From Haliotis rubra (Eukaryota): a stretch of DNA of 64,000 nucleotides. Location of the stretch: NCBI RefSeq assembly GCF_003918875.1, contig NW_025767191.1, positions 2,914,001 to 2,978,000 on the forward strand, read 5' to 3'. Below the pieces are notes generated by a model. It was not told the DNA's origin, made no database searches, and saw only the letters and a program-made list of their open reading frames with translations. Shown one piece after another: positions 3,911-12,829 of the stretch; position 1 is the stretch's first letter; the number at the start of each line of letters is the position of its first letter. A program made the position numbers and the translations under genes.

Positions 3911-5697
3911 TGGTATCATCACTATTTCATAGTGATTCATTAACACCTGCTCTGTCATTTATCGCATGGGTTTTTCTGGTCCAGACTCAAACAGCTGTAA
4001 TAATGCTGACATAAATTTATACTCAAGATATAGACACAATTGTGCATTCGACTCGAATGTTTATGGATGTGGAAAGGGGTTTGTTGCTTCTATTTCTATT
4101 ATCATATGAGATAATCTAGTCATTAATCCTTAAGAGGTTTCTCTATTCCGACAATTCCGTTTTTAACAAATACTAAAATACTAAATTGTAAGGTATTTAG
4201 AGAAAAGATTTTTCATAGGTAAAATGCGCAGTTAACACACATATTTCAGATTTTAAAGTGGCTTGGTGACATATTATTGGATTTTGTTTTGATATAATTT
4301 GCATAACATGCATATAAAAAATACATTATGTATTACTCAGAAAGATAAAGGGGACATAGCTGTGAAAATTATATGAATGGATAACAGGTTGTACATGTAT
4401 ATTTGTGGCTGCGAACGTTTCATATGTATTATCTTATACCAGGGCTCAAGTAACATATGTAAGAGTCAGTATTACACATTCACAGTAAAATATAGATTCT
4501 AGCACTGTTGTTGGGTTGAGTCCATCCGGGGTTCGAACCCAAACCCATTGACACCGTCGCGTCTGTTTCATATTTAGATATATGCTTAAAGTTATAGAGT
4601 GGTCACTCTACATTAGACTGTATGAAAATGGGAACGACATTCTAACTGTTAACCTTTTCCTTTCTTTCAGCTCTAGCCTGTGTACACATTACAACGTTTG
4701 TGCTACAATTCCGGCATTCTTTTCCTTCGAAAGATATAAATGTAATGCGAATTTTGACAATAGTCACAAGATTTCTGGCCTCAGTGAAGTTTGCCACGCG
4801 TTTTCTGATGGACAAGTGCAGTACCTTTCCAAACTGGACACATCTGTGAAACAACATTTCTGCTGCAATTCCCTATTTTGACTTTTACCATAATCCCCGT
4901 GTTTTCAGGTTAACAACTGACTTTCTTTTCCCATACTTGTGACGGGTACCACCGATGAACAGGATATGTGGGTGGGAACTGTCGCTCTTAATTAATGATG
5001 GTGTTCATGATAATCTCCTATAACAATGGTTGTTGCTGTTCAGTAACAGTTCACAGGTTTCATAATCACCCTGCAACGCGAACTCGCAAATAAACCCGCT
5101 AACTAATGGATAGTGAGGTTCATAATGCATTCGTTATCTCGGTAATGCCAATTACTGAACGCTATTGTTCCATGTACTCATTAGTAAATAATAAGGATAT
5201 CAGTATGAATCGTGTGTTTTCGGTAGCTGTGTACGCTAGGCAATGTCTTATAACGGACGATTTCTAATGGCTGACAACAGTGTATGAAATAAGGCCCGTC
5301 CGACCGCCCGAGACGGGTTAGATTTCAGACGGACGGTCGAGATTTACAGCTAGCCATCCCGATGGTCTGGTAAAAATTTAGATGTTATATACATAGTGGA
5401 TACTAAACGACCTTCCGTGTAATACCATTTTTATTAAACGAGTTAATGATTTGAAGCTAAATCTTTCACGAGTTTAATAAAAATGGTATTTCACAGAAGC
5501 GAGTTTAGTATTCTGTTTATTACTCTCCAACATAAATTGATCGAAACTGGTTACAGTGTGATGACTCTCATGTCAATTTTCCTCGAGTCAAGCAAGGTCT
5601 AATTCATGGATCCGCGCATATTGATTGACAGCTGGTATCAACCAATCAGAAAAAAGCTTTGTTGTCCTTAGTTACCGTGCGGTGAAAAGCGCAGAAA

Positions 5698-8600
5698 ATG
5701 GTATTACGATGCGCGTGGGGGACATGCAATGCTGACGAACGTTACCCTGAAAGACTGGAAGGAGTTTTTTTCGTCCGATTTCCAACTGTCAAACGGAATG
5801 AAGAAAAATGCAAGCGATGGATTAAAGCTTGCGGTTGTCCTCATTAGCAGCTAAATTTATCCAGAATAAATCAACACAAAGCTAAGGTAAAAATTATTGC
5901 ACTTAAATAATATTTATAAAAAAGGCATACTTAATTTTATACAGAATGTTCACTGTTATAACACGAGATCGGAGCAATAATATATCTGGAGAATTCATTT
6001 GTAACCATTTCCGGCAAAGGAAGTTCGATCTCAATTCATTTGATTCGACGTAATTGTTTAGGCCTGATACGTAATTAGATATAGATAGCTGGAAAATGGA
6101 CATGTATTTCTGTTGGTCTTATCTGATAGTATTTTGTTTTATTCCAGCATTTTGTAGGAGGAACAGGACCGAGCAGAGAATATCCTGACCCAGTGCCTGC
6201 AGACGGAGCCTGCCCAAAGCCAGTCAGAAAACCACCCCTGAAACGCCCAAGCCAGTACACTCCCTGCATATCGGATAAAAAGCAGAGGTCATCTCTTGTC
6301 GGAGAGAATATTGACATGTGTGTATTTAAAAACTTACACAAATCAAACTAGATGCATTCTTCAAATTCAATAATGGAAAATACATATATACCGTAATCAT
6401 AATTGTGGGATAATTATTAATATTTCTGGAAATGTATGTATGCAAATTTATTTTAAATAACTTCAATCAAATTTTAGGTTTCATTGCTATTTCTATGTCT
6501 TTCATATCTTTTTTCAGAGTGCCCAGAGTTTTCATTATCCCCTTATTCACTGTAGATGTATGTTTATTTTCATTATGTAGTGTAGTCTGTTCTCAGAGAG
6601 AATACTGACTTGTATACGTTTCACAAATTACACACATCAGAGTAGATTCATTCATGTTTTTTAATGATGGAAAAATACATGTAAATAATATTCATAATGA
6701 CAATAAATAATAAACATCATCATAGTCATGTCAAACATTATATATTCGCTTTTTTCAGACTAAACACAGGCAAGCCATCCACCCAGTCGACTGCTTCAGT
6801 TCAGATATTGTTACCCAATGACCAAGCAGAAAACAAGTCCACTGACTTCCTGATCAACACATCTACACAGACTGATGAAACATGTATGTATATATGGAGA
6901 TTCTGTGTTCATTTATTCCTCGGTGGTTGCATTCTTTAGGTAGGATGCCGCATGATCTCTGTAAAACATGGCTAGTTTCATTAACATTGACTGCATGAAA
7001 ACAATGTCGGGAGTTATTCTCTCCACATGCATGTCCAGTTGAGTGAACACAATAAACTCACAAAACCTGCACCCAGTAACCATCAACTGACCTTGTACTT
7101 GTGCGTAGTGATGGTGAGATCTTTTCAAAGAAGTTACACCATTTTCCTTTTTAAGGAAAAAGTCTAAATCTTCACAAGCATTGTCAGTGGTCATGTTGCG
7201 TGCTGAGTAGGGACATTTGATCTCAACAATCCCACTTTCACCATTGTCACAAATCTTGCTATCAGGTGTTGCTCCCAAAAATGAAAACTCATTGTTTACA
7301 ACAAACCCGCATTCATGAAAATGTCTGTCTGGATATTTCTGATGGTACCTTGCCTTAGCATCTTTTTCATGTTTCTTCCCATATTCTATCGATTGTGCTT
7401 TTATATTTCTTCTAGTGAAAATAGAGTTCAAGAAACCATGATTTGGCCTTTTTTTCTGGACAAAACCTTTCCAAAACTTGATGCAGTTAGACGTTTCCTG
7501 CGTTCATCAAACCAGAGTTCATTTGACTGACTCTGTGTTTTCATTTCAAGAGATTTGGGATCCTTACAGATTGTATCTTCATCATTTAGATGAGCAAATT
7601 CCTGGGTAAGCTTCACTGGTGGAAGCAAGATAACACTGGTGTTCCCATATATGTGTGTAGTTGGTGTTGCATTCTTGATGTGTTTGATCTGAAATTATAA
7701 ATAAATCATTCAAATATTTTGTCGTTTCAGGGATATCAGCAATGGACATACTAGCTCTGGCAGCAGAAAAACATGATTTGAAGCAACAATTACAAGACAA
7801 GTCAAGAGAAATAAGAGAGTTGAACATCAAAGTGGCATCACATGAGAAGACAATATAGGAATTACAGAGAGAGCTTCAACAATCATCATTATTTTCCATA
7901 GATGTTGTGATCACCGGGGGTAAAAAAATCAAAAACTTATTCAAACACTATACAGGTGTTACATATGTGAGATTTCTCACACTACTTACATTTCTGCTAC
8001 CCCAAGGAGAGGACATTGATTATTCATCAGGGAGAAAAGACATCAAGAGACTTAAACCTCAGGATGCATTATTGCTTACTCTCTGTCGGTTAAGGCATGG
8101 GTTTGGACTTAAAGACATTGCAGTTCGCTTTTCAGCAGGCATCATTTTCAACACATGGCTTGATCTGTTATATTTCAAGGTAAGGTAGATTCCAATATGG
8201 CCACACAGGGATGATATAATACAACATATGCCTGAAAAATATCGTAGAGACTATCCAACAACATTAATTATCATTGATGGTTCAGAAGTCAAAACACAGA
8301 CCCCATGTGCTGTAAGTTTGCAAAGTCAAGTCTACAGTGATTACAAGTCCTCTTCTACTCTTAAGGGTTTGATTGGATGTGATCCAAATGGAAGCTAAAT
8401 GTTTGTTTCAGAACTATTTACTGGTTCAATATCTGACAAAGCAATCACTGAACAGTCATTAAGTCAATGAAAGAAATTGGACACATTAATGAAGGTGATG
8501 GCATCATGGTTGACAAAGGTTTTTCTATCAAGAATGAAGTTGTAAAACTAGGTTTGAAACTGAATATACCTCCAAAAGGAAAGACAGGAAAACAATTCAA

Positions 8601-8790
8601 CATGGGAGAAAATGCATGTACAGAAAAAGTGGCAAAGCACAGAGTTCACATTGGGAGACTTATTAACAAGGTGAAACAATATAAATTATTGTCAAATTGT
8701 GTTCCAACATCTCTATTCTCAAGGATAAACAAGATTTGATCTGTTTGTTGCCACCTGACATTATTTTAGGATGTTTTTGTTAAGTACTGG
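5698..8790 (+). pseudogene. ISL2EU transposase (THAP + coiled coil + HTH + DDE_Tnp_4); exons 5698-5886, 6148-6287, 6759-6883, 7731-~8790
   Basis: MVLRCAWGTCNAD...RFP...WIKACG / HFVGGTGP (THAP); KHYTG, LLLTLCRLRHG, IIIDGSE, YSDYKS, FTGSISD, IMVDKGF, RVHIGR. Splice phases are consistent. Several in-frame stops, and the third catalytic Glu appears replaced by Gly. Confidence 0.85.
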
Positions 8791-10238
8791 TGCATATCTA
8801 AGTTGTTCAATGAGGTCAAGCTACTACTGTATACAGCAACTCGTAATAGAACAAAATTTCAAACTCTTCTGAAATGTTTTTAAGTTAGTTGCACCTCTTT
8901 GACATAGATATGTAGATATATACCTGATAAGATAGTGCAGATCCAATTGGCACATCTCCCATAGGAGTTTGCACCGAAGGCAAATCATGTTGTGCTGTTC
9001 TATGCAGGAGTGGTGTGCCCTGTAGAGTTTGAAGACTTGCCATATCAACCCTTGGTAGCCTGAAATACACAGATATACATACAGATCATATACAAACAAA
9101 TCATCTTACAGTTGTGTTTGTAATATGAATTACACATCATTAAAAATGCAGATTTTCTATCATGTATAGATAATTCCTTCATTCTGTTACATAAGGGCAG
9201 TTATCATTCTTAACTTGTAATCAAGTTAAAATGTACATATGTTTCATGGATATCTTGAATTATCAATTTTAGCAAAATTTCTGATGAAATAAGAATAAAA
9301 CTATACTTGTAATTCATGTCGGTGTGGCATTGTATTGGCTTCCGCTTGCGTTGTTCAGTTGGTCTTGCAACCGCAACCTGACTGATAGGCACTGGCAAGA
9401 TTTTGTCTCCCCTTGGCTTGTTCCATTGTTGTGGCATGGATGTGGAACTCAAATCAGATGGAATTTCTTTGAAGTCGTGGAGCTTGAATCCCTGGAATGT
9501 CTTGATCAGACCTATTATATGGGAACACTTCCCACTTAATCTGAAAGAGAAATAGCAAAGATAAAATTTATTTAGCAGATTATGAGTAGATTTTACCTTG
9601 TTTACTTGATACTCAGTCGACTGGTTCTAATAAATAATGCCTTGATCATACAAATGTTCTAACCTAATATTTAAGATTTTCTTCAAGCATGGATTTATTG
9701 GGAAAATGCTGGACCAAAAATTGTGGTATATTTGCATTAATTCACTTTGACAATTTTATTATTAGAAATGACTAAAACTTCATAAACAACATTTGATTTA
9801 GGGCCTCTCAATAATTAAAACCAAACGGTATTTTGACATTGACAAGTCTGGCATCTACGTTCTAGACCCTTTCAAGATTGGCTGTACTATGCATCACAAT
9901 AAATGTAAATCTTACGCACACATTTTCGTAACAGGTATAAAATCATCTGCGAAAATAGCAACTTACCCAGCTTTACAAGAGCAATAAGCATATTTGATTC
10001 GGTCGACATCAAGGTCAAGTGACAGTCGATGAGGCGAGTTGTTTTTCCTGAGTGATGGCCAACACTTGGCGGATACGGTCGGAAACTGAAGTGTCACCTC
10101 ATGAATGTAGCCTTGCTGGTAATAATTAAGTCCCTTTTGCATGCTCTTAGTCGATATTTGATCAGCAATCTGTAAAAAGGACACAGAAAACTTTTCAGGA
10201 ATGCATGCGAGACAATTGCTTTGCTCAGCGGCGGCCAT
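6913..10238 (-). pseudogene. ISL2EU accessory gene: SWIM zinc finger + YqaJ (lambda-exonuclease-like) nuclease; exons 10238-9967, 9540-9307, 9059-8924, 7688-6913
   Basis: CSCKAG/LSGKCSH (SWIM), STSMPQQWNKPRG, QSQSNELWFDERRKRLTASSFG, YGKKHE, FLGATPD, EIKCPY, HYAQVQGQL. GT-AG junctions are in phase; one frameshift in the A-run near 7450. Confidence 0.88.
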
Positions 10239-12829
10239 TTTGTTAGAAAGCGTGGGGTGCCTCGCGACAGTATCCAAGGGGCGGGGCTTAGCGAAGATGC
10301 GCGGATCCATGAATACTATTGCGACAGAGGCATTTGCATTGTGACGTCATAACTGTAACCATTATGACGTCATATGTCTAGCGGTATTACACTAGTGTAA
10401 TATTGCTCCCGCCCCTGGTATATTACCATAAGACCCATAAATATATTACACTGCAGTATCTCCCACGGGTGAGTAATAAATCTGAGTCATATATTGGTAT
10501 CTGGTCTGGTTAAATCCATTTTGGACTGGTAACATTTTGAAGTTACCAGCCCTGGTGTCTGGCTGGGGTTTTGGCTTATTTCATACACTGCTGACAGATC
10601 TCACTCAGCTTTGGACGCAAGGTCTCTAACCTCAGAGGACAATTTCTTCTGAAACAAAATTGCTGGCAGAGTTAAAGGCTTCATTAAAAGAAATACATAC
10701 AGGTGGCAGGATATTTTATAATTCAGGCAAATTTCAGTCTCATTGCAACTCATAGCCCTCTCTACCGCATACACTATTCTGAGAACATCGTATACAGGTC
10801 TAGTCAAAGCGACATTTCGTAATCGTTGACCAACCAGTGAAATGATCGGAAAGACGTTGAAATGACATACTCGGAAAGCCTCTTGTTGTCGAGCTTTACC
10901 TCACAAGTTTCTTCCCAGGATGTGGATTCTCTGTTTCAAATTGAAACTTTAACAAAAGAACATTCTCTAATGCCTTATTGATGGCTGAGGGGGCGTGGCA
11001 GAACTTCAACGAGCAATGGCATTTTCTTCCATTTTCATGTATTTCCTCACTGAAGCGAGGGATAGATGAATGAGAGTTGGAGGAATCAGTCGTACATCCC
11101 GTAACTGTAGCTCGTAATATTACCACTAAATTTGAAAGATATACGCGTCATTTGAAAAAATGATATCCCGAGCGTCACCTTCCCAATACAGTAAGCGACA
11201 CTCCAGTTGGATGAAATGTCGATCTGACGTGACCTGTAACAGGATGTCGTCGAATCTCAGTCAGAACTATGATCTTATTTTAATGAGGATGGGCAAATTC
11301 ATACCCGTCCAGTCTGTTTACACGATGTGGCTGAATTTTGCAAAACCTGCCATTTGTTTGACAAACCGAATCAGAAAACACGCCATACAATTAAAGGCAT
11401 ATCAAGTTTCTGAACTATCCGTTTGTGACCTACGACATTAATATACGTCACACTTGAGTAAAGGGTAGAGATTTGGCACCCCTATTTCTGGGGAACGATT
11501 CCATGGCGAGGGGTTAATTATAGGTCATTTTCAGTTTGCAACTTATCAAAGTGCCAAGTAGCGGATGCATTGTCGTTCCTTGCCTTAGCCATGATGTTAT
11601 TTGTTGAATCCCAAGCTGAAACTAAAAAGTAAACTGGAAATTAGTCCGTAAAAGAACTAGGTTATTTTAACGCTGCAGTCAGCAATGTGGCAGCGGTGTG
11701 TAAAATAACCAGCCAATCTTGTGATCAACAGCATGCGCATCGATCTAAGCAATGGGCGATCATTTTGTTCCGAAGGGTGATAACTCTCCTTTTGAAATGC
11801 TGTAAGCGATAGTCCAACTTCTCGCTTCCGGTCTGGTTCCAGACTCAATGTGCGCTCCGACAAATCGCTACATGTAAAGACAGAGCTCACGCTTTTGCCC
11901 TGCTGCACCTTGATTGAGAAACGATCATTTACGACGAAAAAGCTTTGACTCATACATGTTTTGAGGTGATATTTTGTTTACAAAGCATCGTTTGTTTAAT
12001 TTCCAAGTGCAATGCGAATTGACACGCTAGGAGATAACGGGGAAAACGCCATGAAAAATCGGTATACTGTCATGACATTTTCTACCACAGAACACGAGAC
12101 AGTGTAACTCTCGGGTGTCATAGCATCAATGAAATAATGAAACCTCACTTCATCAGTCCATATGTTATTTCCAAAGACAATTACTCAACCCCCAGTCAAT
12201 GGTTGCTGCATTCACATCTAACAAATAGTTCTCAAATACTATCACAGACCTCAATGTAATAAAATCGAAAATGCAGCCAGCGGGCATCCTCTGGAAGGCC
12301 TTTATCGCCTATAATTATTCCACATCCTAACAATTGAATAAATACCGTGTAGAATGAAACATAAATATAAAAATTACGTTTTGATCAACAGTTCCTCACA
12401 CATCTAATTTCATTTTTTTTAAATTCTGACACAATATTTTTAAAGTATTCTGAATCTATACTCAGCGTCATTAATGAAGTGTCAAGGTATTGGTAACACT
12501 ATTTCTTAAAAGTTGTAAAACTTCGTTTTTGTTTGAAATCTATACAACTGAATGCTTTACAAACGTTCTTAACAGTGTGGAAAAACACCTGAGGCCGTTG
12601 AAATGACACTACGTTCTTTAACGTCCGATGCATTCTGTTGCAAATGGCACATTCTTTATTCAAATTGTCAATATGGAAATCTACCTGCCTCTTAATGTCA
12701 ATGATTTGTATGTGCAAGTCGCCCTATCATGGAAAGTGGAAGACAATACACATGTATTGATGGGTTTTTCACTGCCGTTCACTGTTCAGTACCTGATTGA
12801 AATCGCAGCTTAAAATGAGACGTTTTTGA

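What the first reader, a model, noticed from the sequence alone, without database searches (positions are those of the whole stretch)
7689..7730. 42-bp segment acting as back-to-back splice acceptors on both strands
Seen: CTGAAATTATAAATAAATCATTCAAATATTTTGTCGTTTCAG ends in TTTCAG on the plus strand (transposase exon 4) and in TTTCAG on the minus strand (YqaJ exon 4). Each opens the correct reading frame immediately. Inference: the branch points must lie in this tiny spacer or within the opposite gene's coding exon, giving a doubly constrained sequence. The CTGAAA...TTTCAG symmetry may record how the arrangement arose.
Basis: partly seen in the sequence, partly recalled or inferred. Interest (0 to 1): 0.7.

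Follow-up and report, generated by a model that had tools for sequence, protein, structure and literature searches.

The report
Transposon with two interlocked genes
The 42 bases are the short stretch of intron shared by the two genes of an animal jumping gene, each of which keeps its last exon inside the last intron of the other; the interlocked layout recurs in five related families, but the stretch itself varies from 37 to about 290 bases and its mirror look is likely just two ordinary splice signals facing apart.

Summary
The sequence is as described. It lies in a decayed ISL2EU DNA transposon (5604-10312; THAP-DDE transposase on +, YqaJ nuclease on -). The genes are interleaved: each last exon sits in the other gene's last intron, so the two final acceptors face apart.

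The minus acceptor is used: RNA-like contigs from 3 of 4 runs (one study, a sibling copy) join 7688 to 8924 with canonical ends. The plus acceptor has homology support only (split codon gives a conserved Trp); no junction was seen.

The spacer is 42-44 bp in this family but 37, 102, 136 and 291 bp in four related interleaved families. It diverges like ordinary intron (13% against 5-8% in most exons). The symmetry stops after the hexamers (P=0.50), and TTTCAG ends 7 of 8 other acceptors in these elements.

The real feature is the interleaved layout: 37 of 74 loci, one side of a 100/99 branch of the transposase tree, against 36 tail-to-tail loci. I found no paper describing it. This scan noted it before in a mussel (e1-9813892). 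Origin by duplication and reciprocal loss, and any regulatory effect, are inferred and untested.

The parts
7689..7730 (.). 42-bp stretch that is intronic for both genes: the 3' end of transposase intron 3 (+) and the 3' end of YqaJ intron 3 (-)
   Evidence: sequence; minus junction in contigs; plus acceptor by homology
5604..10312 (+). ISL2EU-type DNA transposon, decayed copy, about 19-bp terminal inverted repeats, flanked by AT on both sides
   Evidence: ends shared by 8 full-length copies with differing flanks; inverted repeat I5; empty-site letters in contigs
5698..5886 (+). transposase exon 1 (THAP zinc finger), one in-frame stop in this copy
   Evidence: Pfam THAP E 0.0013, below the curated cut-off; coordinates
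6148..6317 (+). transposase exon 2 (end of THAP, basic region), predicted
   Evidence: homology to relatives and to L097
6759..6883 (+). transposase exon 3 (linker), phase-1 donor, predicted
6884..7730 (+). transposase intron 3, predicted; holds YqaJ exon 4 on the opposite strand
7731..8787 (+). transposase exon 4 (coiled coil, HTH_Tnp_4, DDE_Tnp_4); broken in this copy, one 376-codon open frame in the majority of close copies
   Evidence: Pfam
9967..10238 (-). YqaJ gene exon 1, predicted
   Evidence: homology
9307..9540 (-). YqaJ gene exon 2
   Evidence: canonical joint 9058/9306 in run X2; homology
8924..9059 (-). YqaJ gene exon 3, phase-0 donor
   Evidence: joints on both sides in contigs
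7689..8923 (-). YqaJ intron 3 (1235 nt); holds transposase exon 4 on the opposite strand
   Evidence: skipped with CT..AC ends in 3 of 4 runs
6913..7688 (-). YqaJ gene exon 4 (lambda-exonuclease-like domain); frameshifted in this copy
   Evidence: Pfam YqaJ E 2.8e-13

Best explanation
The 42 bp are the leftover intron between two splice acceptors that face apart because the transposase and YqaJ genes of this ISL2EU transposon are interleaved; the minus acceptor is used in RNA-like contigs, the plus acceptor is predicted from homology, and the spacer likely has no role beyond carrying two ordinary 3' splice signals. Shown: gene order exons T1-T3 (+), Y4 (-), T4 (+), Y3-Y1 (-); the YqaJ splice across the transposase exon; the same order in five families; free variation of spacer length and sequence. 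Inferred: each pre-mRNA is transcribed through the other gene's last exon and removes it as intron; splicing on one strand does not see the signals of the other, so A+T-rich sequence with a degenerate branch motif serves both. Inferred, weaker: the layout arose once in a tail-to-tail ancestor by duplication of the block holding both 3' ends (tandem, or a nested copy) followed by reciprocal loss, which permutes the two last exons without inverting them and puts the two acceptors back to back.
For: Junction 7688/8924 CT..AC in 3 of 4 runs; all 19 genomic matches run through the spacer, none joins exon 3 to exon 4 there. Trp at the split codon as in 7 of 14 full-length relatives; the next in-frame AGs give Ser, Ser, Ser, stop or Tyr and drop conserved residues. 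Spacer 42-44 bp in 18 of 19 loci of this family, 135-136 bp in 6 of 6 family B, 289-292 bp in 8 of 9 family C (one not matched), 102-104 bp in 6 of 6 family D, 37 bp in metagenome contig L097. Divergence like intron. TTTCAG at 7 of 8 other acceptors of the window and L097 elements. Interleaved 37, tail-to-tail 36, unclear 1 of 74 loci; one change on the transposase tree, support 100/99.
Against: No RNA junction for the plus acceptor. RNA status of the runs is a guess, they are one study, and no DNA run was laid as control. Two of five spacers (37, 42 bp) are about the length of a branch-point zone, so a lower limit is possible. Inner spacers of families A and B are more alike than shuffles (P=0.007, 1 of 10 comparisons). 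Constraint test rests on four older copies and 42 sites, partly post-insertion decay. YqaJ tree supports the split only weakly (69/33). Both trees are midpoint-rooted, so direction is not shown. Tail-to-tail families L074 and L086 have no intron at the YqaJ exon 3/4 position, and L060, L061 and L076 none in the transposase linker, so the origin model needs those introns to be gained first or at the rearrangement.
Confidence: 0.85

Rival explanations
1. The spacer is doubly coded: each acceptor TTTCAG read on the other strand is CTGAA, a 4-of-5 match to the CTRAY branch motif with its A at -39, so each gene's acceptor would serve as the other's branch site and about 40 bp would be a selected length.
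For: CTGAA at -39 on both strands, inside the 18-44 nt human branch window (PMC6988378, passage). L097 is also short (37 bp) and has CTAAA at -34 on the minus strand.
Against: Families B, C and D have 102-292 bp spacers, where the geometry cannot hold. L097 lacks the motif on the plus strand. Other candidates exist (-19 and -44 on +; -14, -22 and -48 on -). Any two TCAG acceptors facing apart give CTGA automatically.
Confidence: 0.08
2. The interleaving is kept because it couples the two genes: their pre-mRNAs overlap antisense over about 2 kb, so transcription of one would damp the other (collision or double-stranded RNA), limiting transposition.
For: Layout kept in five families only 36-57% identical in transposase. 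Contigs bearing the YqaJ splice extend to 6730, across transposase exon 3 (X3 record 14).
Against: Persistence is equally expected if the layout is simply hard to undo. Contigs carry no strand or level. 36 of 74 loci do well tail-to-tail. This rival concerns the layout, not the 42 bp, and is compatible with the best explanation.
Confidence: 0.2
3. The CTGAAA...TTTCAG symmetry is a relic of an inverted duplication, or the remains of a small inverted-repeat element, that created the layout.
For: Mirror hexamers also occur in families C (TTACAG twice) and D (TTTCAG twice).
Against: No symmetry beyond the hexamers (6 of 15, P=0.50). Absent in family B and L097, and broken in 3 of 18 loci of this family that keep both AGs. 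TTTCAG is the common acceptor. A simple inversion of the two last exons would flip their strands, which is not what is seen.
Confidence: 0.04
4. Only the YqaJ acceptor is real; the DDE exon is expressed alone from an internal start, and the plus TTTCAG is incidental.
For: No plus-strand junction seen; a Met lies 4 codons into exon 4, and many database proteins start there (P0050, P0007, P0008, P0011).
Against: Full-length THAP-to-DDE relatives exist, two of them called on contigs (1719 and 2131 nt) too short to hold the intervening YqaJ exon as well (P0013, P0016). An AG with a pyrimidine tract sits at the matching phase-1 place in all five families.
Confidence: 0.03

Closest known systems
[quoted passage not shown]
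   Same: THAP+HTH+DDE transposase, second gene with YqaJ domain, AT target duplication, short TIR, about 4.8 kb.
   Different: The two genes are interleaved rather than side by side. The passages and table rows I saw give no exon layout. Termini read TC, not the usual GG.
Tail-to-tail ISL2EU families of the same genome (36 loci, e.g. L061, L074)
   Same: Same two proteins on opposite strands, same genome.
   Different: Each gene is contiguous and the 3' ends face each other; those inspected lack introns at the two positions that host the swapped exons.
KolobokE / KolobokP (PMC9587614, passages)
   Same: DDD/E transposon carrying an accessory nuclease; KolobokE has a lambda-exonuclease-like domain.
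   Different: There the nuclease lies downstream of the transposase; KolobokP has a His-Me nuclease and long terminal direct repeats, not seen here.
Nested and interleaved antisense host genes of animals (recalled, no call)
   Same: [quoted passage not shown]
   Different: Here the nesting is reciprocal, involves the two cooperating genes of one 4.8-kb mobile element, and the acceptors are 37-290 bp apart.

Membership tests
ISL2EU | Transposase with THAP, HTH and DDE (DDE_Tnp_4) domains | tested here: met
   HTH_Tnp_4 E 5e-9, DDE_Tnp_4 E 1e-7 and 2e-10; THAP E 0.0013, under the curated cut-off in this broken copy; full-length relatives carry PF05485
ISL2EU | Second gene with a YqaJ exonuclease domain | tested here: met
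   PF09588 E 2.8e-13
ISL2EU | AT target-site duplication in an A|AT|T-like site | tested here: met
   AT on both sides of 8 of 8 full-length copies, mostly between A/T bases; contig letters of the host repeat show one AT at the empty site. A blunt insertion with a one-base-longer TIR reads the same and is not excluded.
ISL2EU | TIR of 6-259 bp, usually starting GG | tested here: inconclusive
   TIR about 19 bp is in range but starts TC; the paper says 'usually'
ISL2EU | Length near 4.8 kb, animal host | tested here: met
   4713-5139 bp in 8 copies; relatives named from molluscs, a brachiopod, hemichordate, amphioxus and fish
ISL2EU | Placement in the ISL2EU clade against Repbase reference transposases | not tested
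   No Repbase sequences were available; trees hold only own-genome loci, L097 and database relatives
KolobokP | His-Me finger nuclease and long terminal direct repeats | tested here: not met
   Nuclease is YqaJ; no long direct repeats at the ends
   37-292 bp; 9 of 10 pairwise comparisons not below P 0.05; intron-like divergence
   Only assembled contigs were available, no lariat reads

The most novel reading that the evidence does not exclude
A whole clade of ISL2EU transposons has locked its transposase and nuclease genes together so that each is transcribed through the other's catalytic exon, and this is selected as a built-in mutual brake; in the most compact members the shared intron has shrunk to about 40 bp, where each gene's acceptor doubles as the other's branch site.
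Probability: 0.12. Interest if true: 0.75.

Novelty: new variant of a known kind. Interest (0 to 1): 0.36.

Why it matters
The 42 bp themselves are ordinary. The layout they mark is unusual: reciprocal nesting of the two cooperating genes of one transposon, kept across families only about 40-55% identical. It explains why gene callers often report the DDE exon as a stand-alone 350-residue protein. It also gives a compact natural test bed, with a 37-290 bp length series, for how close two opposite-strand acceptors can sit and whether forced antisense overlap tunes transposase against its accessory nuclease, whose role the ISL2EU literature calls unknown (PMC4482050, passage).

Tried and rejected
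KolobokP/KolobokE, my first guess from memory: rejected. No listed run is on record as RNA. No cover over transposase exons 1-2 or 7824-8155 in the four runs: a blank, no evidence on expression. Laying the same runs on family B copy L040 to catch a transposase junction gave no junction and almost no exon cover. Viral contigs gave only 8 distant YqaJ matches at 24-26%, not examined further; prokaryote genome contigs gave nothing. Of 20 extra own-genome loci, none gave a new measurable interleaved spacer; 4 tail-to-tail ones with both genes entered the layout count. Inversion as origin: rejected by strand logic. Literature: searches 'KolobokP', 'ISL2EU+YqaJ' (3 papers), 'ISL2EU' (46, listing of 40 seen), 'ISL2EU/exons/antisense', 'interleaved genes+opposite strands+transposon+intron' (0), a nested-gene/Harbinger search (2, listing only, unrelated) and 'interleaved/nested genes/antisense/splice acceptor/overlapping introns' (0) found no description of the layout. 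Repbase Reports, where ISL2EU families are annotated, and paper figures cannot be seen here and may show it. Three acceptor strings were off by one base; one search corrects the count for the window to 5 of 6.

Full report
Observation. Window 7689-7730 is 42 bp and ends in TTTCAG on both strands. Neither strand has another AG within it. It is the only such hexamer pair of 30-60 nt span in the window, which holds 39 CTGAAA and 34 TTTCAG. To its right the plus strand encodes HTH_Tnp_4 and DDE_Tnp_4; to its left the minus strand encodes YqaJ; a THAP domain lies at 5698.

The element. A 451-bp search of the own genome gave 19 matches, all running through the spacer. Eight full-length copies are 4713-5139 bp, share about 19-bp inverted ends and carry AT on both sides, with unrelated flanks except one shared left flank. 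Contig letters from the repeat that hosts the window copy show a single AT at the empty site. THAP-HTH-DDE transposase, YqaJ gene, AT duplication and length match ISL2EU as defined in PMC4482050 (section 5 read; 18 rows of Table S2 seen) and in passages of PMC4122938 and PMC9179366. The termini start TC instead of the usual GG. The window copy is dead: both last exons have stops or frameshifts. The host is likely an abalone, since a near-identical protein (P0050) is named Haliotis rubra by its source.

Gene layout. Transposase exons (+): 5698-5886, 6148-6317, 6759-6883, 7731-about 8787. YqaJ exons (-): 10238-9967, 9540-9307, 9059-8924, 7688-6913. Each last exon lies in the other gene's last intron. 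The 42 bp are the only part between them that is intronic for both.

Are the acceptors used? Minus strand: yes, in a sibling copy. Contigs of 3 of 4 runs join 7688 to 8924, skipping 1235 nt with CT..AC ends; the fourth joins 7679 to 8924 with unknown letters between. The runs are guessed to be RNA, come from one study, and no DNA run was laid; but none of the 19 genomic matches shows the joined form. Plus strand: not shown by RNA. Exon 3 ends in phase 1, and with the AG at 7730 the split codon is Trp. Of 14 full-length THAP-bearing relatives among the 120 listed, 9 match the linker motif and 7 have Trp there; downstream in-frame AGs give other residues. Two of these relatives were called on contigs of 1719 and 2131 nt, too short to hold the YqaJ exon as well, so they are likely spliced forms.

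Is the spacer constrained? No sign of it. In this family it is 42 bp in 11, 43 bp in 6 and 44 bp in 1 of 19 loci; the nineteenth, most diverged, has lost the plus AG. I fetched 60 of the 152 YqaJ matches and found three more interleaved families, with spacers of 135-136 bp (6 of 6), 289-292 bp (8 of 9) and 102-104 bp (6 of 6). These acceptors are placed by homology only. An intact element on metagenome contig L097 has the same layout and a 37-bp spacer. Inner spacers do not align better than shuffles, except families A and B (P=0.007, 1 of 10 pairs; B and L097 P=0.05). In four older copies the spacer differs from the consensus at 13.2% of sites with 5 indel events. The last 42 bp of four other introns differ at 13.1, 14.3, 5.6 and 9.8%; the two flanking exons at 6.9 and 6.4%; the short linker exon T3 at 13.7%. 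The test is small and includes post-insertion decay.

Is the symmetry informative? No. Beyond the hexamers 6 of 15 positions mirror each other, against 5.6 in shuffles (P=0.50). TTTCAG ends 7 of the 8 other homology-defined acceptors of the window and L097 elements, so two in a row is the expected outcome. Mirror hexamers occur in three of five families.

Branch points. More than 95% of human branch points lie 18-44 nt upstream in a degenerate CTRAY motif (PMC6988378, passage); I assume a similar range in molluscs. Both strands have candidates inside the spacer (-19, -39 on +; -14, -22, -39 on -) and just inside the opposite exon (-44, -48). The -39 sites are each the other gene's acceptor read backwards (CTGAA). 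This is neat but automatic, and it is impossible in the three long-spacer families.

The layout is the real feature. Of 74 loci holding both genes, 37 are interleaved, 36 tail-to-tail and 1 unclear. The loci were my choice and include many near-copies. In a transposase tree of 30 de-duplicated loci (of 63 long enough) plus 23 database proteins, layout changes once, on a branch with support 100/99. The 23 proteins fall on the interleaved side, but they were found with an interleaved query and their layout is unknown. The YqaJ tree also needs one change, weakly supported (69/33), and its midpoint root places interleaved families among tail-to-tail ones. The five interleaved families are 36-57% identical in transposase, so the layout is old.

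How it likely arose (inference). The change from tail-to-tail to interleaved swaps the order of the two last exons without changing strands. An inversion cannot do that. Duplication of the block holding both 3' ends, in tandem or as a nested copy, followed by loss of the first transposase end and the second YqaJ end, does, and it puts the two acceptors back to back at the duplication joint. Against a simple version: the tail-to-tail families inspected have no intron at these two positions, so the introns must have come first or with the event. I give this route about even odds.

Novelty. ISL2EU is known. My searches found no paper on the interleaved layout, but Repbase entries and figures were out of reach. 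This scan noted the same layout in a mussel (e1-9813892); I had reached the reading before seeing that note, and it is not independent proof. What this window adds: junction evidence for one acceptor, a five-point spacer length series, and a negative test of the double-constraint and symmetry ideas.

Verdict. Observation confirmed; interpretation partly supported; new variant of a known kind; interest 0.36.

Noticed in passing
window 6292-6403 and 6586-6698: The 3' end of transposase exon 2 with its donor is duplicated 294 bp downstream (74% identity), also in sibling copies; it may give one or two extra mini-exons or a decoy donor.
   Followed up: no
window 7152-7284 and 9058-9343: The expressed sibling copy lacks 131 nt of YqaJ exon 4 (2 letters in their place) in X1 and X3, and X1, X3 and X4 join exon 3 at 9343, 37 nt short of the canonical donor seen in X2; the transcript likely comes from a damaged copy.
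   Followed up: partly
window 6681-6913: Contigs with the YqaJ splice extend past the first AATAAA (6912, - strand) and across transposase exon 3, so the mature mRNAs may overlap antisense; contigs carry no strand.
   Followed up: partly
window 5271-5600 and 10315-10597: The element sits inside an abundant short repeat (its two halves are joined in many contigs), next to a 53-bp palindrome (5400-5511), all enclosed by a further 23-bp inverted pair (5271-5293, 10575-10597) with hAT-like CAGTG ends (label recalled): nested insertions.
   Followed up: no
window 5659-5661: The window copy lacks about 57 bp of the 5' subterminal region present in most sibling copies.
   Followed up: no
L034 (G000:C2324:56500-66400): Two partial copies of this family lie in inverted orientation about 500 bp apart.
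   Followed up: no
L108-L109 (G000:C369:1743000-1762800): Six THAP exon-1-like segments within about 12 kb with no DDE or YqaJ match in the fetched stretches; possibly a host THAP gene cluster.
   Followed up: no
L097:1-4794: Apparently intact interleaved ISL2EU on a metagenome contig, closest to Ruditapes proteins P0010 and P0121; a good template for experiments.
   Followed up: partly
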